63,929 bases of DNA from a virus (Duplodnaviria; Caudoviricetes). Positions 8,946-56,036 of the stretch are shown piece by piece (positions within the stretch are counted from its first letter, which is position 1; every line of letters begins with the position of its first letter). Below the pieces are notes generated by a model. That model saw only the letters and a program-made list of their open reading frames with translations, did no database searches and was not told the origin of the DNA. The DNA lies in the IMG/VR virus record IMGVR_UViG_3300034117_000797, positions 1 to 63,929 of that record. One strand, written 5' to 3'. Position numbers and translations under genes: made by a program.

Positions 8946-9590
8946 GTGAAATCAAAAGAAACTATTATGACAACACAAAGAATCAAGCAGCAAGTAAGTA
9001 AGTATGTATTCGCACTAGAGTATGTGCGTGACAAATGCGGTAAGAACGGTGGCAAGTTAGTCACCGCAGAGTTTAGGCGTGAGACTGGCCTCAATGCCGT
9101 AGCCGTCAAGGGTATGTTAGGCTTCGGATACATCAAGAAGATTAGTAGGGGTAAGTATATGTGGACAGCGCCAGATGTTGTTCAACCTATTATGGCTAGG
9201 AATGTGTACGAGTATGTCAAGGAATACTTTAGGAGTAACCACGACAAGCGTAACGGCAATGTAGTAGAGCAAGAAGTAGAGCAACCTATTGAAGATACAC
9301 ACGAAGAGCCTGACTATGTAGCAGGACTCATAGCAGAAGTTCAGATGCTTGAGCGTATGAATCAAGACTTGAGGGATGCATTCGAGAATGTTTCTAAAGA
9401 AAAGGATATGTACTGTTCATTGTATGATGCAGTATTTGAACAGCTGAGCGAGATGAAGGACAATCATAATGCTATTGTGAAAGATATTATGGACACACCA
9501 CAACTCATCTGCACATCGCTTGACAATGAACATACGTCTAGGACTTATTACTTCTTTGGATTGCCTATATGGTCAATTAAATTCAAATAA
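8946..9590 (+). CDS. Hypothetical protein, possible winged-helix plus coiled coil
   Basis: GYIKKISRGKYMW wing-like motif; heptad-rich C-terminal half; start may be 8967. Confidence 0.7.
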   Translation: MKSKETIMTTQRIKQQVSKYVFALEYVRDKCGKNGGKLVTAEFRRETGLNAVAVKGMLGFGYIKKISRGKYMWTAPDVVQPIMARNVYEYVKEYFRSNHDKRNGNVVEQEVEQPIEDTHEEPDYVAGLIAEVQMLERMNQDLRDAFENVSKEKDMYCSLYDAVFEQLSEMKDNHNAIVKDIMDTPQLICTSLDNEHTSRTYYFFGLPIWSIKFK

Positions 9591-9720
9591 TATGCTAGAT
9601 AAAATAGCGTTTGCAGTGGTAATCATATGTCACATTGTATTAGATGTGACTATGGTTGCTTTCTTAGTAACTTTATTCTGGAAGTTGATTGTTTAACATT
9701 AAATTAGATAGAAAAAAAAT

Positions 9721-10104
9721 ATGACAGTACTCGAATTGTTGGTAGACAATCTACCCGATGAATACATTCAAGCAGTAATCAACAACATCAAGGATAAGTC
9801 ATCGCTTCATAACGAGGCGACCAATATATCAGCTGAGTTGTTGTCGCTGTTTGATTGGGAATCATCGAAAGAGGGGTACGACTTTTGGGAAGAGGTATTG
9901 GAAGCCATACTGATAGCAGGTGAGCTTCCACCCTTACCCATAACGATTGGATACGCCCCATCCACAATGTTTTATTGCAAACATCAAATCTATTTGATGA
10001 ATGTCGGTGACACTGGCATTCACGTATCATTTGGATTACCAACCGACGCAATCAAGCACCTAGAAGGTGAAAGAAAAGAAAAAGTTTTAGCATTTATTAA
10101 CTGA
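9721..10104 (+). CDS. Hypothetical protein
   Basis: 127 aa ORF. Confidence 0.75.
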   Translation: MTVLELLVDNLPDEYIQAVINNIKDKSSLHNEATNISAELLSLFDWESSKEGYDFWEEVLEAILIAGELPPLPITIGYAPSTMFYCKHQIYLMNVGDTGIHVSFGLPTDAIKHLEGERKEKVLAFIN

Positions 10105-10119
10105 TATGAAAAATAATAT

Positions 10120-10233
10120 TACATTTGTACGTCTCACGCTACCAAGTTAGACACACAGACTAAGATTTTACTTGTTCTATTGGTTGGAACGAACCCTCAG
10201 TTGTGGCATGGTAGCGTGGACTGAGGGTTTTTT
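10120..10233 (+). ncRNA. Promoter plus three-hairpin kissing-loop leader/sRNA ending in a terminator (copy A)
   Basis: TACATTTG at 10120; loop CACGCTACCA (10135) is complementary to TGGTAGCGTG (10209) in the loop of terminator AACCCTCAGT/ACTGAGGGTT-TTTT. Confidence 0.7.
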
Positions 10234-10503
10234 ATTGCCCTTAACATAGGGTGTTGTATGCCATTGAACATCATTATCAAAAACAATGTCTCACAATGAA
10301 CGCTTGTTCCGAACAACAAACCCTGCTCTGTCTAACGCTTGACAACAGGTACTGCATACCGAAAGGTAATGGAATCAAGTGAGCCAAATAGCCCATTGCT
10401 TAGGCAAGAATAAATAAGAAAGGGTCGCAGAGGGAAGTGTCATTGGTTGGGAAATCTTAATTAAATGCTGTGTATGGTATATGCAGTATAAAAGCGAAGC
10501 TAT

Positions 10504-10743
10504 ATGAAGAAAGAAAGAATAACAGTATGGGTAATGCTATGGGAATTAGTATGGTTCTCATCAGCAATGGTACTAGGAGCAATGTTAATGCTTATGTACC
10601 TTAAGACAAAAGAAAAGAAAGAAGATGCTAGACAATCAGCTTATCTCTTTGAGGAACCTAGGGACTGGTCAACAGACACCACTCTCCACAGAGACAAGCG
10701 TGACTACATCGAATATTTATTTAACAAAACAGAAGAACAATGA
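10504..10743 (+). CDS. Small membrane-anchored protein
   Basis: N-terminal hydrophobic segment; coupled to the next gene. Confidence 0.65.
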   Translation: MKKERITVWVMLWELVWFSSAMVLGAMLMLMYLKTKEKKEDARQSAYLFEEPRDWSTDTTLHRDKRDYIEYLFNKTEEQ

Positions 10744-10958
10744 AGACAGCAGTAGAATGGTTAGAGCAAGAGATTGGCAAGAAGAATATGGGAGCATTCC
10801 TAGAGGATAAGATAAAGATTGCCAAGGAAATGGAACAGAATCAAATCGGGAGCGCTTTCCTAGCAGGAGGTCAATCAGCCTTTAGCTTTAAGGGTAATGG
10901 AGAATTCAAAACAATAGAAGAGTACATTGAAGAAACCTATAAAAAAGAAGAGCAATGA
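10740..10958 (+). CDS. TAVEWL-family small protein, paralog 2
   Basis: MKTAVEWLEQ...AKEMEQNQI...YIEETYK. Confidence 0.8.
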   Translation: MKTAVEWLEQEIGKKNMGAFLEDKIKIAKEMEQNQIGSAFLAGGQSAFSFKGNGEFKTIEEYIEETYKKEEQ

Positions 10959-11233
10959 CCGTAGCAAAATTTTTAGAACACGTAGCAAGCAAAGTTCCAG
11001 TGGAATGGGATAGGTATGTGGAAGATGAAGGTTCATACAGTGTGTATGGATGGATACAGCGTAGCGATGGTAAGAGAGACTTCGTGTTGGTCAATATAAA
11101 GGAAGACCTTGGAACTTATGTAAGTTTCGTCACATCATCAGCTAAGTACAGCAGAACATTAACCGAAGTCATATATGGAGAAACATCAGACCATATTGAC
11201 TGTAAAAAAGTAGAAGATTTATACAAAGAATAA
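10955..11233 (+). CDS. Hypothetical protein
   Basis: 92 aa, ATGA-coupled. Confidence 0.75.
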   Translation: MTVAKFLEHVASKVPVEWDRYVEDEGSYSVYGWIQRSDGKRDFVLVNIKEDLGTYVSFVTSSAKYSRTLTEVIYGETSDHIDCKKVEDLYKE

Positions 11234-11572
11234 TGAGAAGACTAATGATACTAGAGAAAATTGTAGCGTGGGGATTGGTAATCCTACTCGTTATGGGGTT
11301 TATTACAATGACAGCGCTAATGTTCTTCGGAGCATACACCGCATTTGAATTACTAATGAGTGTTAAAAATCAGTGAAATGGAGAAATTACAAATGGAAAT
11401 TGAGAAGACTAAGCAGAAGATTAAACACTGCAAAGTCAATGATATGCTTTATGACCTTGAGAGTTATGAGGCTAAGCTAGAGATACTAGAAGAAGAATTA
11501 AAAAAATATATTCAATAAATCTTTTGGTAATCAAAAATATATTATTAACTTTACGGACAAATCAAATGAGTT

Positions 11573-11881
11573 ATGAACAAGGCGAAAGGAATCAAAGACT
11601 TAATGGAGTCTCAACGCTACAAAATCAAGCACCTATCTAAAGCATTAAAAGAAGCGAATATCCCTGGCAACTGGGACTCCACACAGAACCTATACAATCT
11701 AACTAATGGCGAGGTTGTACCAAAAGATGCATATGTATATGTAGTAATGTCAAACCTATTGAATGTAGACATTAAAACAATCCTTAACAGGTACACAGCA
11801 GTAACACAAGTAGAAGAAGAAAGGTTCACACCAACAATAGTCGAGTCATCAATCACAAGAGACATTGAACTTGACTGGTAA
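11573..11881 (+). CDS. Putative XRE-like HTH DNA-binding protein
   Basis: Helical pattern IKHLSKAL...LYNLTNGEVVP...MSNLLNVDI; promoter-like TTTG..TAACTTTA upstream. Confidence 0.55.
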   Translation: MNKAKGIKDLMESQRYKIKHLSKALKEANIPGNWDSTQNLYNLTNGEVVPKDAYVYVVMSNLLNVDIKTILNRYTAVTQVEEERFTPTIVESSITRDIELDW

Positions 11882-11907
11882 TTAGTAATCAATAAAAGCA
11901 AATAAGT

Positions 11908-12948
11908 ATGAATTTTAATGAGTTATCAAGACCATTGGATATTTCCGATGTAGACTTCCGTGTCCAATCTATTAACAATGGTGGCTATGCTACAATCCTT
12001 GCGTACAAAGACGCTAGGGTAGATATGAATAGACTAGATGAGGTATGTGGCATAGGCTACTGGAAGCGAGACTTCAAGGAAATCAATGGCAAATTGTATT
12101 GCGGTGTAGCCGTGTACAACAAGGAAATCTCTGAGTGGATATGGAAATGGGACGTAGGTACTGAGTCAATGACTGAGGCAACCAAAGGTCTAGCGTCAGA
12201 TGCATTCAAGCGTGCGTGCTTCAACCTAGGGATTGGTCGTGAGTTGTATGACTACCCAATCATCAGCGTTAAGCTTAACGAGAACGAGTGGACTAAGGAT
12301 GGTGGCAGGCCTAAGCAGACCTACAATCTACATATCCGTGATTGGAAATGGTATTCAGAGTTTACTGATGGTCGCATTACATTCCTAGCGGCTAAGGATG
12401 AGAACGGAAAGGTTCGATTCAAATGGGGCGTTATGAAGCCGAAAGAAGAAGAACCTGAGTACAAGGCTGCAGCAGCACCAGAAGTAGCAGCAGAACCTAT
12501 CGTAGAGGCTCCTGTAGAGGTTGTGGCAGAGGTTACACCTACACCAGTAGTAGAGGAAGGGAATGTGCAAGGTATGTTGAAGCAAGAAATTGAGGTGCTA
12601 AATGATACCGAAAGACAACAAGCAATCACTTATTACGAAGAGATGTTTGGTAAGAAACCACACCACAAGATGTCTACACTTCGTATCATTGAAGAGTATC
12701 AGCGTGAAGCTGAGAAGCGTGAAGCTGAGTTGAAAGAAGAAGCTACGGTTGAAGAGGCTGAGATTGTTCAGAATGAAGCATCAATCCTTGACTACTTGGA
12801 TATGGTAGATGATTTCAAAGACCCTGCTGAGTTTGTTAAGTGGGCTAAAGATATTGTCGCTCATTTTGATGGGGTAGACAGCGAAGCTGCTATTCAAGGC
12901 TTCAGACAAGTATGTAACGAACATTACTCAAAATTAGTTAAGAGATAA
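11908..12948 (+). CDS. sak: Sak/Rad52-like single-strand annealing protein
   Basis: LAYKDARVDMNRLDEVCG, WKWDVG, KGLASDAFKRA..LGIGRELY. Confidence 0.85.
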   Translation: MNFNELSRPLDISDVDFRVQSINNGGYATILAYKDARVDMNRLDEVCGIGYWKRDFKEINGKLYCGVAVYNKEISEWIWKWDVGTESMTEATKGLASDAFKRACFNLGIGRELYDYPIISVKLNENEWTKDGGRPKQTYNLHIRDWKWYSEFTDGRITFLAAKDENGKVRFKWGVMKPKEEEPEYKAAAAPEVAAEPIVEAPVEVVAEVTPTPVVEEGNVQGMLKQEIEVLNDTERQQAITYYEEMFGKKPHHKMSTLRIIEEYQREAEKREAELKEEATVEEAEIVQNEASILDYLDMVDDFKDPAEFVKWAKDIVAHFDGVDSEAAIQGFRQVCNEHYSKLVKR

Positions 12949-16852: not shown

Positions 16853-17326
16853 ATGATATATTTAATTTCACACGAAAACAAATTTTTGAAGATTGGGTAC
16901 ACTAAAAATATCCATAAACGATTAAGTCAACTACAAACTTCAAATCCAGTCAAATTAGAAGTCTTACACCTTATAGAAGGAAACACTGATTTAGAGAAAG
17001 AACTTCATCAATCATTTGGTCATTTAGTTGTAAGTGGTGAATGGTTTGAATTTCATGAATCTATACTAGATTACTTTAAGGATAAAGAATGCTTGATGTG
17101 GTCAGCAGGATTTACTATTAGTGAAAAAGTGTCAGTTACAGGATTGATAAAAGCAGAAAGATTAAAATTAAATATGTCATTAGAAACCCTTGGTGATATG
17201 TATGGATGCACAGCACAGTCAGTTCGTGAAATAGAACAAAGAGAAATTCAAGGCTCATTGACTCTAGGGATATTGTATAAGATGGCAAAATTATTTAACA
17301 AGAAGTTTGAATACAGATTCAAATGA
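16853..17326 (+). CDS. GIY-YIG (T5orf172/MUG113-like) nuclease fused to an XRE HTH
   Basis: MIYLI..LKIGYT..RLSQLQT.NP...GEWF; C-terminal LIKAERLKLNMSLETLG...QSVREIE. Confidence 0.85.
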   Translation: MIYLISHENKFLKIGYTKNIHKRLSQLQTSNPVKLEVLHLIEGNTDLEKELHQSFGHLVVSGEWFEFHESILDYFKDKECLMWSAGFTISEKVSVTGLIKAERLKLNMSLETLGDMYGCTAQSVREIEQREIQGSLTLGILYKMAKLFNKKFEYRFK

Positions 17327-18191: not shown

Positions 18192-18803
18192 ATGGAAAAG
18201 CAATTACTGCAAGTAAGAGATTTCCAAGCGGCATTTGGGGCAGAGATGCCAGATAAGCCTAAGATGCTTGGGAAAAAGAGAGCAAGACTTCGACAAACAT
18301 TACTACAAGAAGAAGTAACAGAGTTAGCCGAAGCAAAAGATTTAGTAGATGTGGCAGACGCATTGACTGACATCTTATACATCACCTACGGAACAATCCA
18401 TGAGTACGGATTAGCTGACCGAGCTGTGATGCTGTTCGATGAAGTACATCGTTCCAATATGTCTAAGCTTGACTTTGATGGTAAGCCTATCTTCCGTGAG
18501 GATGGAAAGGTCCTGAAGCCTGAGACATATCTTCCACCAAAACTTCAACCAATCCTTGAACGTGACTTCACGGTGTATAAGGAAAGCGAAGTGATGAAGG
18601 AGATTGCTGAAATCCAAAAGAAAGAGACAGAGAAGAGAATCATAAAAAGAATATATAACAAGTTAAATCTTTTTGATAGACTATTGTTCTGGCTGTACAA
18701 CAAGGCTGAGGATAAGCTCAAGAATAAGATTGAGGTTAAGTTCCCCAAGACGATTGACGGAGAGATAGTAGTCCGTGTCTATCACAAGGAGTATGGGGTT
18801 TAG
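18192..18803 (+). CDS. MazG-like / PRA-PH nucleotide pyrophosphohydrolase
   Basis: LLQEEVTEL, VADALTDILYITYG, EVHRSNMSK, REDGKVLKP. Confidence 0.9.
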   Translation: MEKQLLQVRDFQAAFGAEMPDKPKMLGKKRARLRQTLLQEEVTELAEAKDLVDVADALTDILYITYGTIHEYGLADRAVMLFDEVHRSNMSKLDFDGKPIFREDGKVLKPETYLPPKLQPILERDFTVYKESEVMKEIAEIQKKETEKRIIKRIYNKLNLFDRLLFWLYNKAEDKLKNKIEVKFPKTIDGEIVVRVYHKEYGV

Positions 18804-19638: not shown

Positions 19639-19707
19639 ACTCATGTAGCTTAATTGGAAAAGCAGATGCGATAGTTTCCGTTGTAGGTTCGAGTCCTGCC
19701 ATGAGTA
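19639..19707 (+). tRNA. tRNA-like RNA with a shortened, poorly paired anticodon arm (identity unassignable)
   Basis: ACTCATG/CATGAGT acceptor stem, TAGCTTAATTGGAAAAGC D arm, GTAGG-TTCGAGT-CCTGC T arm. Confidence 0.7.
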
Positions 19708-19824: not shown

Positions 19825-19910
19825 AGTCAGGTGGCGGAATTGGTATACGAGTGCTTCCCTTTAGAACAGCACGCCTTTAACGGTTGCAGGTTCGAATCCT
19901 GTCCTGACTA
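19825..19910 (+). tRNA. Type II (Leu-like) tRNA-like RNA with an expanded anticodon loop
   Basis: AGTCAGG/CCTGACT-A acceptor, TGGCGGAATTGGTATACG D region, GTGCT/AGCAC stem with a 12-nt loop, long variable region, GCAGG-TTCGAAT-CCTGT T arm. Confidence 0.75.
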
Positions 19911-19962
19911 CCGCTTTCATAAGCGCATATAAATAGTTTAAGTTTAGGTGATAGGTAAGGTG

Positions 19963-55314: not shown

Positions 55315-55440
55315 GATAAAAATAAATTAAACACCGATGTTTCCATCTGTGTAGGTTAAAAATATAACCATGCACCGTGCATAGATTGAAGCAAAATTAA
55401 GCATTATTTCATAGCAATTTTTTTAAGTTTTGGCGAATGT

Positions 55441-55590
55441 TCTTTTTTTCTTTTTGGAGTATATATAGAGTATATACGTAGTATATACGAATATATGTAC
55501 TCTTTTTCTTTTCTTTCTTTCTTTTACTCCACTTTTCTTTCTTTCTTTTCTTTTACTTTTTCTTTTTTTCTTAACTCGTAAAAAAAAATG
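55441..55590. repeat. Pyrimidine tracts flanking AGTATATA repeats (origin-like)
   Basis: AGTATATA three times inside a GAGTA/TACTC inverted repeat; TTTC runs; lies between divergent promoters. Confidence 0.55.
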
Positions 55591-55598
55591 ATTAAAAA

Positions 55599-55731
55599 TT
55601 TGGTGGTTAAAAAAATGTGTCTAACTTTGCTACATCAGAATACGGACTGATTAAAGAATTTAGGTTTCGTTCTACCCAACGAAGTAACCCTTGCTCTTAT
55701 GTGCCGTATCACAGAAGAGTGAGGGTTTTTT
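55599..55731 (+). ncRNA. Promoter plus three-hairpin kissing-loop leader/sRNA ending in a terminator (copy B)
   Basis: TTTG-19nt-TAACTTTG; loop ATACGG (55640) is complementary to the terminator apical loop CCGTAT (55704). Confidence 0.7.
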
Positions 55732-55742
55732 ATTTGAAAGAC

Positions 55743-56036
55743 ATGGAAACATTTAGAGTAGTGTGCGTTAACTCAAACGCAAGACCAGCAGACTTCCCTG
55801 CACACCTTTGGATTGATAAAGGAGAAATTTACACAGTAGTAGATGCAAAGTACCTAGCCAAGCAACACATGGCGATGGGATACAAACTGTCAGAGATTGA
55901 ATTGCCTGATGATTGCAAATACAAATTCTTTTTAGCAAACAGATTCAGACCATACACAGACGATGACGCAGAAGCAGAGGCTGCTGTTGAATCATTGTTG
56001 CAAGAGGTAGAAGAATTCCAAGCAGTAGAGCTTTAA
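55743..56036 (+). CDS. Hypothetical protein
   Basis: Likely ATG 55743 (METFRVVC), right after the leader terminator. Confidence 0.7.
   Translation: METFRVVCVNSNARPADFPAHLWIDKGEIYTVVDAKYLAKQHMAMGYKLSEIELPDDCKYKFFLANRFRPYTDDDAEAEAAVESLLQEVEEFQAVEL

What the first reader, a model, noticed from the sequence alone, without database searches (positions are those of the whole stretch)
10120..10233. Kissing-loop attenuator/sRNA, copy A
Seen: promoter element TACATTTG; hairpin 1 (GTCT/AGAC) whose loop holds CACGCTACCA; hairpin 2 (GTTCTA/TGGAAC); then terminator AACCCTCAGT/ACTGAGGGTT-TTTT whose loop holds the perfect 10-nt complement TGGTAGCGTG. The same architecture recurs at 55599-55731 with a different complementary loop pair, which amounts to natural covariation. 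Inference: a class of pseudoknotted RNA switch I do not recognise, in which 5'-loop/terminator-loop pairing (in cis, or in trans between transcripts as with the P4 CI and P1 C4 immunity RNAs) controls read-through. The loop sequence could act as a specificity code.
Basis: partly seen in the sequence, partly recalled or inferred. Interest (0 to 1): 0.8.

Follow-up and report, generated by a model that had tools for sequence, protein, structure and literature searches.

The report
Phage leader RNAs with matched kissing loops
A group of uncultured lake-water phages places a short leader RNA after two or three of its promoters, in which the loop of a hairpin at the start of the RNA is complementary to the loop of the terminator hairpin; the loop sequences differ between phages and between copies but almost always still match, and no catalogued RNA family fits it.

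Summary
Copy A (10120-10233) and copy B (55622-55731) have the promoter box, hairpins, terminator and complementary loops as described (10 nt and 6 nt).

Relatives show that the pairing is selected. Of 45 distinct modules collected from related IMG/VR phage contigs, 43 have at least 6 contiguous Watson-Crick pairs between the 5' hairpin region and the terminator interior, using about 26 different loop words. In one alignable subfamily the stems are nearly invariant. All 7 loop-loop pairs there change on both sides, and 63 of 63 cells stay paired.

Related 60-65 kb genomes carry two or three modules each, with different loop words. They sit in three fixed places:
- before a conserved 97-aa gene;
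- before an HNH homing-endonuclease gene;
- before a conserved structured noncoding region of about 270 nt.

Rfam has no match.

Best reading: a promoter-proximal attenuator cassette whose terminator hairpin is docked by the 5' hairpin through a kissing loop, with the loop word acting as an address. Whether docking works in cis or in trans, and whether it raises or lowers read-through, is inferred, not shown. No RNA data were available.

The parts
10120..10127 (+). Copy A: Bacteroidota-type -7 promoter box TACATTTG (TAnnTTTG)
   Evidence: Sequence. The same box precedes every homologous module. That this box is the Bacteroidota promoter consensus is recalled, not tested.
10131..10152 (+). Copy A: hairpin 1, stem GTCT/AGAC, loop 10135-10148
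   Evidence: In the A-type subfamily the homologous stem is kept, with 2 pairs changed on both sides (helix 1).
10135..10144 (+). Copy A: loop word L1, CACGCTACCA
   Evidence: Exact reverse complement of 10209-10218.
10174..10190 (+). Copy A: hairpin 2, GTTCTA/TGGAAC
10192..10229 (+). Copy A: terminator hairpin, 10-bp stem with an 18-nt loop
   Evidence: The consensus terminator scan did not list it, because that scan allows loops of 3-8 nt only.
10209..10218 (+). Copy A: loop word L3, TGGTAGCGTG, complementary to L1
   Evidence: Duplex energy -16.5 kcal/mol.
10228..10233 (+). Copy A: U tract (T6)
10234..10503 (+). Conserved structured noncoding region that copy A precedes (its presumed cargo)
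   Evidence: No ORF of 50 aa or more before 10504. Sequence conserved in relatives although the next genes differ. Consensus fold of 61 pairs, 14 with compensatory change. No Rfam match.
9721..10104 (+). 127-aa gene of unknown family; marks the conserved position of A-type modules
   Evidence: no Pfam hit. Its 16 homologues at 34-45% identity were examined; in 14 an A-type module follows, and in 2 the contig ends too soon to tell.
55622..55629 (+). Copy B: -7 promoter box TAACTTTG
55634..55651 (+). Copy B: hairpin 1, ATCAG/CTGAT; loop word L1 ATACGG at 55640-55645
55665..55684 (+). Copy B: hairpin 2
55686..55727 (+). Copy B: terminator hairpin; its 6-nt apical loop CCGTAT (55704-55709) is L3
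55726..55731 (+). Copy B: U tract
55743..56036 (+). 97-aa gene (METFRVV...), first gene after copy B; its ATG lies 11 nt after the U tract
   Evidence: 42 homologous loci. Predicted SH3-like barrel plus a C-terminal helix, pLDDT 87.6; only generic SH3 matches, Z up to 5.7. No Pfam hit.

Best explanation
The element is a portable, promoter-proximal leader cassette of a clade of uncultured lake-water phages of about 60-65 kb, whose promoters look Bacteroidota-type.

How it is built. A host-type promoter (TAnnTTTG) starts an RNA of about 90-105 nt. The RNA begins with a small hairpin (H1), often has a middle hairpin (H2), and ends at a GC-rich hairpin followed by a U tract, that is, an intrinsic terminator. 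The apical loop of H1 (L1, 6-10 nt) is the Watson-Crick complement of the apical loop of the terminator hairpin (L3), so the two hairpins can form a kissing complex.

What I think it does. The cassette is an attenuator that gates its cargo. The cargo is the 97-aa gene operon, an HNH homing-endonuclease gene, or a structured noncoding RNA. Docking of L1 on L3 within the same transcript locks or pre-organises a terminator hairpin whose loop is too large to be efficient alone. Most transcripts therefore stop and leave a compact small RNA. The loop word serves as an address that keeps the two or three cassettes of one genome from mispairing.

Shown:
- the anatomy;
- covariation of the loop-loop pairing;
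- multiple copies with different words in one genome;
- the fixed positions directly upstream of cargo;
- the absence from Rfam.

Inferred:
- transcription from the promoter box;
- termination at the hairpin;
- docking in cis;
- that docking increases termination.
For: Anatomy.

Covariation in the A-type subfamily (9 sequences):
- Loop-loop helix: 7 of 7 pairs changed on both sides; 63 of 63 cells are standard pairs, none of them G-U.
- Whole structure: 98.4% of cells paired, against 87.7% in shuffles (0 of 500 as high).
- With the 3' partners slid by 1-3 columns, only 25-45% of cells pair.
- The H2 stem and the outer terminator stem are each invariant in 5 of 6 pairs.

Wider set (45 distinct modules: 16 A, 26 B, 3 C):
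- 43 have 6 or more contiguous Watson-Crick pairs between the first 32 nt and the terminator interior; 35 have 7 or more.
- By my count from that table there are 28 different loop words, or 26 after merging words that sit inside a longer one.
- One single compensated step is visible: GTGTTGGCA/TGCCAACAC against GTGTTGGCG/CGCCAACAC.

Controls:
- Unrelated loci (33 loci, 207,345 bases): 9 promoter-plus-terminator modules, with best helices of 4 (2 modules), 5 (6) and 6 (1); none reaches 7.
- Seven related genomes: 16 of the 17 conserved positions examined have a helix of 6 or more. Of 13 other promoter-plus-terminator modules in those genomes, 3 reach 6 or more. By my reading, those three are AT-rich strings not placed in hairpin loops.

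Leader position:
- The U tract ends 11-20 nt before the ATG of the first gene of the operon in B-type loci.
- The terminator stem ends 9-11 nt before the HNH gene. That gene is NUMOD4 plus HNH_3.
- The terminator leaves no room for another promoter, so the cargo can only be expressed by read-through.

Large terminator loops: interiors of 19-60 nt. The consensus scan, which allows loops of 3-8 nt, misses copy A.

Different words within one genome:
- G000: CACGCTACCA and ATACGG.
- G002: GTCGCAA, GTGGTAG and GATGCAG.
- G006: GTGGTAG, GCGATG and CCTCAAC.

Closest precedent for the logic: in corrinoid riboswitches a kissing loop between an upstream loop and an expression-platform hairpin stabilises that hairpin and so sets terminator formation (PMC10327014, passages read).
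Against: - No transcript data. No RNA run holds the phage, so promoter use, 3' ends and read-through are unobserved.
- Nothing here tells cis docking from trans docking, or whether docking helps or hinders termination.
- The loops are as variable as the unpaired linker (mean pairwise difference 0.50 against 0.48). That is faster than a purely structural cis contact would be expected to evolve, and it fits a recognition code under diversifying selection better. This is my inference.
- Three exceptions show the pairing is not absolute:
  - L123 is nearly identical to L118 but carries L1 CCTCACC against L3 GTGTGGA.
  - L060 has 9 of 10 pairs, with an A.A mismatch.
  - The B-type leader of G009 has only 5 Watson-Crick pairs plus one G.U, and L1 is not in a clear hairpin loop.
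- In a few modules the nested minimum-energy fold prefers a long-range L1:L3 helix over the terminator. A switch between two folds is therefore not excluded.
- The 6-nt match of copy B is not significant alone (168 of 1000 shuffles).
Confidence: 0.5

Rival explanations
1. The loops act in trans, as a recognition code between transcripts. Terminated leader RNAs, or leaders of a co-infecting relative, would kiss nascent leaders carrying the same word and change their termination. That would give autoregulation of each cassette, or RNA-based exclusion or competition between related phages. The logic would be that of P4 CI or P1/P7 c4 immunity RNAs and of plasmid copy-control antisense RNAs.
For: - The loop words vary as fast as unconstrained linker positions while the stems are nearly frozen.
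- No G-U or mismatched intermediates occur among the 63 cells.
- One IMG sample id (3300017754) yields three related contigs with different words: ATACGG, GTGCAG and GATGCAG.
- The HNH cassette keeps one word (GTGGTAG) in G002 and G006, although the other cassettes of those genomes differ.
- Fully complementary loops of 6-7 nt closed by short stems are the geometry of known antisense kissing pairs (recalled).
- P4 CI precedent: an RNA made from a leader pairs with complementary sequences on the same transcript and causes premature termination (PMC4825925, passage read).
Against: - Both partners lie on one RNA, 50-80 nt apart, so intramolecular docking should outcompete intermolecular docking unless geometry forbids it. 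That is untested.
- The complementarity does not extend conservedly beyond the loops, which strand invasion would need (my reading).
- No processing signals or second target site: in the window the word of copy A has only its one partner, plus four 1-mismatch sites. In all that is 6 matches against 1.92 expected, reached by 3 of 100 shuffles.
- No expression data.
Confidence: 0.25
2. The product that matters is the short RNA itself. It would be a stable small RNA whose kissing fold protects both ends from nucleases, and which acts on other targets or binds a protein. Attenuation of the downstream gene would be a by-product.
For: - H1 starts within a few nucleotides of the expected 5' end (L1 begins 3-16 nt after the promoter box, most often at 10-11), and the terminator closes the 3' end.
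- Short RNAs left by promoter-proximal terminators can be regulators. StxS from the Shiga-toxin phage late promoter is an example (PMC7547250, only the start of the abstract seen).
Against: - After docking, L1 and L3 are occupied, and the remaining single-stranded parts are poorly conserved. The AAGAwwTTT-like linker motif is present in only 15 of 45 modules.
- Three different fixed positions immediately upstream of cargo argue for a leader role.
- The host is unknown, so targets cannot be sought.
Confidence: 0.12
3. The complementarity acts at the DNA level. L1 and L3 would be an inverted repeat bound by a protein (operator half-sites), or used by a recombinase to invert the 60-80 bp segment and destroy the terminator.
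For: L1 and L3 are by definition an inverted repeat in the DNA. Inverting the segment between them would remove both hairpins.
Against: - The arms are only 6-10 bp.
- Two or three different words per genome would need as many proteins.
- Each arm sits exactly in the loop of its own conserved hairpin.
- All 45 modules have the same orientation.
- DNA contigs of four runs show no strand-changing joint inside 10120-10233. This is weak evidence, because contigs drop rare variants.
Confidence: 0.03

Closest known systems
Corrinoid (cobalamin) riboswitch L5-L13 kissing loop (PMC10327014, passages read)
   Same: A loop early in a 5' leader kisses the loop of a hairpin in the expression platform, in cis. 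The kiss stabilises that hairpin and so decides whether a terminator or an RBS hairpin forms. It has been tested by disruptive and compensatory loop mutations.
   Different: There the kiss depends on a bound ligand and a large conserved aptamer. The loops are short (3-4 pairs) and conserved, and the kissed hairpin (P13) is not the terminator itself. Here there is no aptamer and no Rfam cobalamin match. The pairing is 6-10 bp, the words are hypervariable, and the kissed hairpin is the terminator.
P4 CI RNA with seqA/seqC, and P1/P7 c4 RNA (P4: PMC4825925, passage read; P1/P7: recalled)
   Same: The antisense element and its target are encoded on the same strand and in the same leader transcript of a phage operon. 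Pairing controls premature termination, and differences in sequence give different immunity specificities.
   Different: Those RNAs are cut out of the leader and act in trans in lysogens of enterobacteria. P4 has two target sites flanking the RNA. None of them is a kiss between a 5' hairpin and the loop of an intrinsic terminator. Here I found no sign of processing, no second site, and no sequence or Rfam relation.
Plasmid antisense control by kissing loops: ColE1 RNA I/RNA II, R1 CopA/CopT, pT181 and pIP501 countertranscript attenuation (recalled)
   Same: Fully complementary hairpin loops of 6-7 nt act as the recognition step. Loop changes create new specificity groups. In pT181 and pIP501 the outcome is formation of a leader terminator.
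   Different: There the antisense RNA is transcribed from the opposite strand and is a separate molecule. Here both loops are on one transcript, and the opposite strand shows no matching promoter-terminator module.
phi29-family packaging RNA (pRNA) (PMC4201828, only the start of the abstract seen)
   Same: A phage RNA of about 100-170 nt carries two loops that are complementary to each other. The RNAs of that phage family differ in how they self-associate through these kissing contacts (abstract). That the loop words differ between related phages while staying complementary is recalled.
   Different: pRNA loops pair between molecules to build a ring on the portal. There is one gene per genome, no terminator hairpin is involved, and it is not a leader of genes. 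The Rfam search gave no match of any kind at the element, so none to a pRNA family.
Promoter-proximal terminators of lambdoid late operons (PR'-tR', 6S RNA, StxS; PMC7547250, only the start of the abstract seen) and HK022 put RNA (recalled)
   Same: A constitutive promoter is followed within about 100-200 nt by a terminator that must be read through to express the cargo. The short RNA accumulates. put is a two-hairpin promoter-proximal RNA.
   Different: Those rely on the Q protein or on direct action of the RNA on the polymerase. No loop-loop pairing and no variable address word is known there.

Membership tests
Any Rfam 15 family (4227 models) | Match to a curated covariance model | tested here: not met
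   - Window at gathering thresholds: only two tRNA matches, elsewhere in the window.
- Permissive search of 10050-10550 and of 55400-55800: nothing better than E = 0.15, and no family plausible.
- 12 homologous loci: no match at E <= 0.5.
Intrinsic (Rho-independent) terminator | GC-rich hairpin followed directly by a U tract | tested here: met
   - Copy A: 10-bp stem, then T6. Copy B: 13-bp stem, then T6.
- The same holds in the 45 modules.
- In L054, L056 and L057 the T run is interrupted (GGGGCTTTACTTTT).
Intrinsic (Rho-independent) terminator | Short apical loop (about 3-8 nt), as in typical efficient terminators | tested here: not met
   Copy A has an 18-nt loop and is not listed by the consensus scan, which requires a loop of 3-8 nt. 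Terminator interiors are 19-60 nt in 17 representatives.
Intrinsic (Rho-independent) terminator | RNA 3' ends at the U tract | not testable with these tools
   No RNA run was listed for this phage.
Bacteroidota housekeeping promoter | -7 box TAnnTTTG at a suitable distance upstream of the RNA | tested here: met
   Box present in copies A and B and in the homologues. Three leaders carry TTACTTTG instead. The consensus itself is recalled; -33 elements and start sites were not tested.
RNA kissing-loop complex | Watson-Crick complementarity between the apical loops of two separate hairpins, kept by covariation | tested here: met
   (7 of 7 pairs with a change on both sides; 63 of 63 cells paired). 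(43 of 45 modules with 6 or more pairs). Exceptions: L123, L060 and the B-type leader of G009.
RNA kissing-loop complex | Both hairpins and the loop-loop helix exist at the same time (a pseudoknot rather than alternative folds); cis or trans | not testable with these tools
   Covariation supports H1, the terminator and L1:L3 separately but cannot show that they coexist. No tool here predicts pseudoknots or RNA 3D structure.
P4 CI / P1 c4 type immunity RNA | Antisense RNA excised from the leader, with two target sites flanking it (P4 seqA and seqC) | tested here: not met
   Each module has a single complementary pair. The word of copy A has no second perfect site in the window. No Rfam match. 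Processing could not be tested.
Riboswitch | Conserved ligand-binding core of unpaired nucleotides | tested here: not met
   Outside the stems, the unpaired parts are the most variable (5' lead 0.63, linker 0.48, loops 0.50 mean pairwise difference). No motif is shared by all types (15 of 45 modules).

The most novel reading that the evidence does not exclude
The loop words form an RNA address system. Each cassette's terminator would be conditional on docking by a hairpin that carries the matching 6-10-nt word. Leader RNAs would then act between molecules, so that phages (or cassettes) sharing a word regulate or exclude each other, while those with different words are blind to each other. That would be an RNA-only immunity or incompatibility code in phages that use Bacteroidota-type promoters. 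It would have evolved independently of P4, P1 and the plasmid systems, and it would be built directly into intrinsic terminators.
Probability: 0.25. Interest if true: 0.85.

Novelty: new variant of a known kind. Interest (0 to 1): 0.72.

Why it matters
- **A well-supported new RNA family.** It comes from a phage clade with no cultured relative, and its tertiary contact is backed by unusually clean natural covariation.
- **An unusual arrangement.** I found no described case in which a 5' hairpin loop pairs with the loop of an intrinsic terminator, reused as a cassette before three kinds of cargo with a different word each time. If docking sets terminator efficiency, this is a minimal, protein-free and ligand-free way to make a terminator conditional and addressable.
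- **A way into phage early gene control.** It bears on how these phages control early genes, a homing endonuclease and a second, unclassified structured RNA.
- **A parts list for engineering.** It offers a natural set of about two dozen loop words (their mutual orthogonality untested) for building orthogonal terminators or attenuators.
- **A possible recognition code.** The fast turnover of the words raises the testable possibility of RNA-based recognition between competing phages.

Tried and rejected
- **Rfam.** No relevant match at gathering or permissive thresholds.
- **Known phages.** Megablast of 9000-12000 found nothing. tblastn with the terminase gave only four distant hits at 22-36% identity over 10-29% of the query. 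tblastn with the 97-aa protein found nothing. There is therefore no cultured relative and no annotation to lean on.
- **Scaffold pattern from copies A and B in viral contigs**. Of 17 stretches, 4 are near-identical copies of B (L006, L012, L014, L017). The other 13 are ordinary terminators without the leader.
- **First look for the 127-aa protein** with a single sequence found no relative. A two-sequence profile then found 28 loci.
- **A-type scaffold pattern in 185,579 bacterial and archaeal genomes.** 0 matches, so there is no host or prophage lead.
- **Sequencing runs.** No RNA holder was listed.
- **DNA contigs of four runs laid on 9500-11000**. Copy A is identical in X5 and X6. X8 and X10 do not cover it fully, and no useful variants were seen.
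- **MAFFT alignment of all types together** was not in structural register (A3). I therefore measured complementarity with anchored scripts, and used the pair-counting tool only on the alignable A-type subfamily.
- **A generic test of the longest helix** between the 5' 32 nt and the terminator interior is weak for 6-mers: 96-174 of 1000 shuffles reach them, and cross-pairs between modules reach 7 in 21 of 272 cases and 8-10 in 3.
- **Covariance model R1** from the A-type subfamily finds its own kind at 83-114 bits. It finds copy A of the window, copy 1 of G002, one B-type and one C-type module only at 21-27 bits (E 0.04-0.8). Common descent of the three types is therefore not shown by sequence.
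- **A linker motif (AAGAwwTTT)** that looked shared is present in only 15 of 45 modules.
- **Extension of the complementarity into the stems**, which would indicate strand invasion or an antiterminator, occurs in some modules (copy A by 3 pairs; C-type of G009) but not in their homologues.
- **Extra sites for the word of copy A.** Four 1-mismatch sites in the window; 6 matches in all against 1.92 expected, reached by 3 of 100 shuffles. Not followed up.
- **The 97-aa protein as a possible RNA-binding cofactor.** It has an SH3-like barrel and only generic matches (Foldseek best E 0.095; VIA-align Z up to 5.7), so there is no functional lead.
- **Literature.** Three full-text searches listed no paper describing a 5'-hairpin/terminator-loop kissing leader. 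Only titles and the starts of abstracts of the listed papers were seen, and subscription journals are not covered.
Full report
**1. The observation**

- TACATTTG at 10120-10127.
- Hairpin 1, GTCT/AGAC, at 10131-10152, with CACGCTACCA (10135-10144) in its loop.
- Hairpin 2, GTTCTA/TGGAAC, at 10174-10190.
- A 10-bp GC-rich stem (10192-10201 with 10220-10229) followed by T6. Its 18-nt loop holds TGGTAGCGTG (10209-10218), the exact complement of the first loop.

RNAfold returns the three hairpins as the best fold (-33 kcal/mol, z = -2.78).

Copy B (55622-55731) has the same order of parts. ATACGG lies in the loop of hairpin 1, and CCGTAT is the 6-nt apical loop of the terminator.

Within the window alone:
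- The 10-nt match of copy A is unusual: 2 of 1000 shuffles reach it.
- The 6-nt match of copy B is not: 168 of 1000 reach it.
- A mechanical scan for a TAnnTTTG box followed within 130 nt by a hairpin and T run finds four modules. The two on the + strand are A and B. The two on the - strand have best helices of 3 and 4.

**2. What the window is**

The window is a whole IMG/VR virus record of 63,929 bases, estimated 94% complete.
- It has a long block of structural genes on the - strand.
- Its + strand carries small genes, an Erf-like annealing protein and a DnaB-like helicase.
- It has no near or distant cultured relative in the phage collection.
- Near-identical DNA occurs in lake-water metagenome runs.
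- The promoter boxes are of the Bacteroidota type. That consensus is recalled, not tested.

**3. Relatives of copy B**

Copy B ends 11 nt before the ATG (55743) of a 97-aa gene, the first gene after a divergent intergenic region.

A profile of this protein found 42 loci in viral contigs. I accounted for them as follows:
- 6 are duplicates (L038, L047, L048, L051, L066, L073).
- 2 are cut by the contig end inside the leader (L041, L063). Their visible terminator loops still carry CTGCAC and CTGCATC.
- L062 and the distant homologues (L065, L067, L068, L070, L071, L072; 30-48% identity) have coding sequence upstream and no leader.
- The remaining 27 loci all have the leader.

Together with the two window copies, these 27 loci give 27 distinct sequences.

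Their loop words differ widely but match within each leader. Examples: GTGCAG/CTGCAC, AGCAATAG/CTATTGCT, GTGTTGGCA/TGCCAACAC, TGGTTGG/CCAACCA, GTGCGG/CCGCAC and GATGCAG/CTGCATC.

In several leaders both loops are exactly 6 or 7 nt and fully complementary (L042, L046, L045). That is the geometry of classical kissing complexes (recalled).

**4. Relatives of copy A**

Copy A follows a 127-aa gene. A two-sequence profile of that protein found 28 loci.

I looked at the 16 closest (34-45% identity). In 14 of them an element of the same build follows the gene, and in 2 the contig ends too soon to tell (L087, L101).

In most of them the scaffold is almost constant:
- Hairpin 1: TCGAA/TTCGA.
- Hairpin 2: TATATC-ATGGTA-GATATA.
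- Terminator: CCCTAG...CTAGGG, with an inner TCG/CGA stem.

The 7-nt loops, in contrast, read CCTCAAC, TCCACAC, CTCCAAC, CTCGTAC, TTCGTCC, CTCCACC, CTCCACT and CTCACTC. Each has its exact complement in the terminator loop.

I counted pairs on a 9-sequence alignment. I left out L093 and L100 because MAFFT put a gap inside their L3. I left out the more divergent L092, L096 and copy A because they do not align in register. The result:
- Loop-loop helix: a change on both sides in 7 of 7 pairs, and 63 of 63 cells paired.
- The H2 stem and the outer terminator stem: each invariant in 5 of 6 pairs.
- Whole structure: 98.4% paired, against 87.7% in shuffles (0 of 500 as high) and 25-45% when the partners are slid.

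L093 and L100 themselves carry CTCGTAC/GTACGAG.

**5. Copies per genome and their positions**

I fetched seven related genomes of 60-65 kb and scanned them with the same script. Each has two or three modules, all on the strand of the early genes, in three fixed contexts:
- (A) after the 127-aa gene and before 270-400 nt without an ORF;
- (B) directly before the 97-aa gene;
- (C) with the terminator stem ending 9-11 nt before a NUMOD4 plus HNH_3 homing-endonuclease gene (G002, G006, G009).

Of 17 such positions examined, 16 have a helix of 6 or more. The B-type leader of G009 has only 5 Watson-Crick pairs plus one G.U.

Words differ within each genome. For example, G002 carries GTCGCAA, GTGGTAG and GATGCAG.

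Of 13 other promoter-plus-terminator modules in these seven genomes, 3 reach 6 or more. By my reading, these are AT-rich strings outside hairpin loops. The two modules of the more distant G005 have helices of 4 and 5.

In 33 unrelated loci (207 kb), 9 modules have best helices of 4-6 and none reaches 7.

**6. The whole collection**

There are 45 distinct modules: 16 A, 26 B and 3 C.
- 43 have 6 or more contiguous Watson-Crick pairs, and 35 have 7 or more.
- By my count there are 28 different words, or 26 after merging nested ones.

The exceptions matter:
- L123 is almost identical to L118, but its L1 (CCTCACC) does not match its L3 (GTGTGGA). Its L1 resembles the word of another lineage (CCTCAAC), so it may be a recombinant.
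- L060 has one A.A mismatch in a 10-pair helix.

**7. What it is**

It is a leader RNA of about 90-105 nt that starts at a host-type promoter and ends at an intrinsic-terminator-like hairpin. A covarying loop-loop contact joins its first and last hairpins.

In contexts B and C there is no room for another promoter between the terminator and the start codon, and the gene is the first of its operon. The cargo can therefore be transcribed only by reading through the terminator. That makes the cassette an attenuator by position.

The terminator loops are much larger than usual (interiors of 19-60 nt), and the consensus scanner misses copy A for that reason. This is why I think docking by L1 is what makes the hairpin fold efficiently. 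That step is an inference.

**8. Cis or trans**

Physical reasoning favours cis. Both loops are on one RNA, 50-80 nt apart, with linkers of variable length.

The evolutionary pattern leans the other way:
- The loop positions differ between sequences as much as the unpaired linker does (0.50 against 0.48), while the stems differ by 0.04-0.23.
- No G-U or mismatched intermediates are seen in the subfamily.

That pattern is what recognition codes look like in plasmid copy control and in P1/P7 or P4 immunity (recalled; for P4, PMC4825925). A need to keep two or three cassettes of one genome from mispairing would also select for different words.

I therefore give the cis lock 0.5 and the trans code 0.25.

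A switch between two folds is not excluded. In some modules the nested minimum-energy fold uses the L1:L3 helix instead of the terminator.

**9. Comparison with what is known**

No Rfam family matches. Three literature searches listed nothing of this build (listings and the starts of abstracts only).

The nearest known logics are:
- the corrinoid riboswitch kissing loop (a cis kiss that stabilises an expression-platform hairpin; PMC10327014);
- P4 CI and P1 c4 (sense-strand antisense within a phage leader);
- plasmid kissing-loop antisense control (loops as specificity words);
- phi29 pRNA (two mutually complementary loops that pair between molecules; PMC4201828, start of abstract only).

The element fails the defining features of each as a family. 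It is a new arrangement of known parts.

**10. Limits**

- There are no transcript data of any kind.
- The host is unknown.
- Common descent of types A, B and C is not shown by sequence.
- The pair counts rest on 9 related sequences chosen because they align.
- Promoter function, termination and docking are all inferred from sequence.
- I did not ask for any supplementary files.

Noticed in passing
window 10234-10503: The 270 nt between copy A and the next gene are a conserved structured noncoding region.
- Relatives carry one of two sequence types at the same place, although the genes that follow differ.
- Type I (7 sequences, including the window): consensus fold of 61 pairs, 14 with compensatory change, with a long closing stem and a GAAA-capped hairpin.
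- Type II (6 sequences): 39 pairs, 7 compensatory.
- No Rfam match.
- The single-sequence fold is not better than shuffles (z = -0.32).

It could be an RNA made by read-through of copy A, or a DNA element such as an origin.
   Followed up: partly
window 10309-10423: DNA contigs of two lake-water runs (X6, X8) replace about 113 bases of the region downstream of copy A with about 100 other letters. This is a variable insert inside the conserved noncoding region.
   Followed up: no
window 55440-55572: The divergent intergenic region upstream of copy B holds 3.8 copies of GAGTATATAC (55457-55496) and long CT-rich tandem tracts. Similar polypyrimidine tracts precede the homologous leaders in other phages. 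Their function is unknown; they might be a promoter-upstream element, an origin or a packaging signal.
   Followed up: no
L123:938-1042 compared with L118:44-148: These are two nearly identical A-type modules from different samples that differ in L1 only. L118 has TCCACAC, which matches its L3. L123 has CCTCACC, which does not. L123 may be a recombinant with a mismatched word.
   Followed up: partly
L040:1297-1457 (same contig as L028): This B-type leader carries a tandem duplication of about 45 nt that includes the 5' arm of the terminator. The loop words AGTGCAG/CTGCACT still match.
   Followed up: no
G002, G006 and G009 (e.g. L132:3051-3695): A third cassette context sits directly before a NUMOD4 plus HNH_3 homing-endonuclease gene. 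G002 and G006 share its word (GTGGTAG), although their other cassettes differ. This suggests that the endonuclease gene moves together with its leader. The window itself shows no such cassette.
   Followed up: partly
window 55743-56036: The 97-aa protein that follows B-type leaders is predicted with confidence (pLDDT 87.6) as an SH3-like barrel with a C-terminal helix. It has no Pfam family and only generic SH3 structural matches.
   Followed up: partly
window 19639-19707 and 19825-19912: Rfam finds two tRNA genes. ARAGORN reports only the second, tRNA-Arg(CCT).
   Followed up: no
window 16853-17326 and 18192-18803: A T5orf172/MUG113 domain fused to an HTH_3 domain, and a PRA-PH (MazG-like) pyrophosphohydrolase, lie in the early region.
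   Followed up: no
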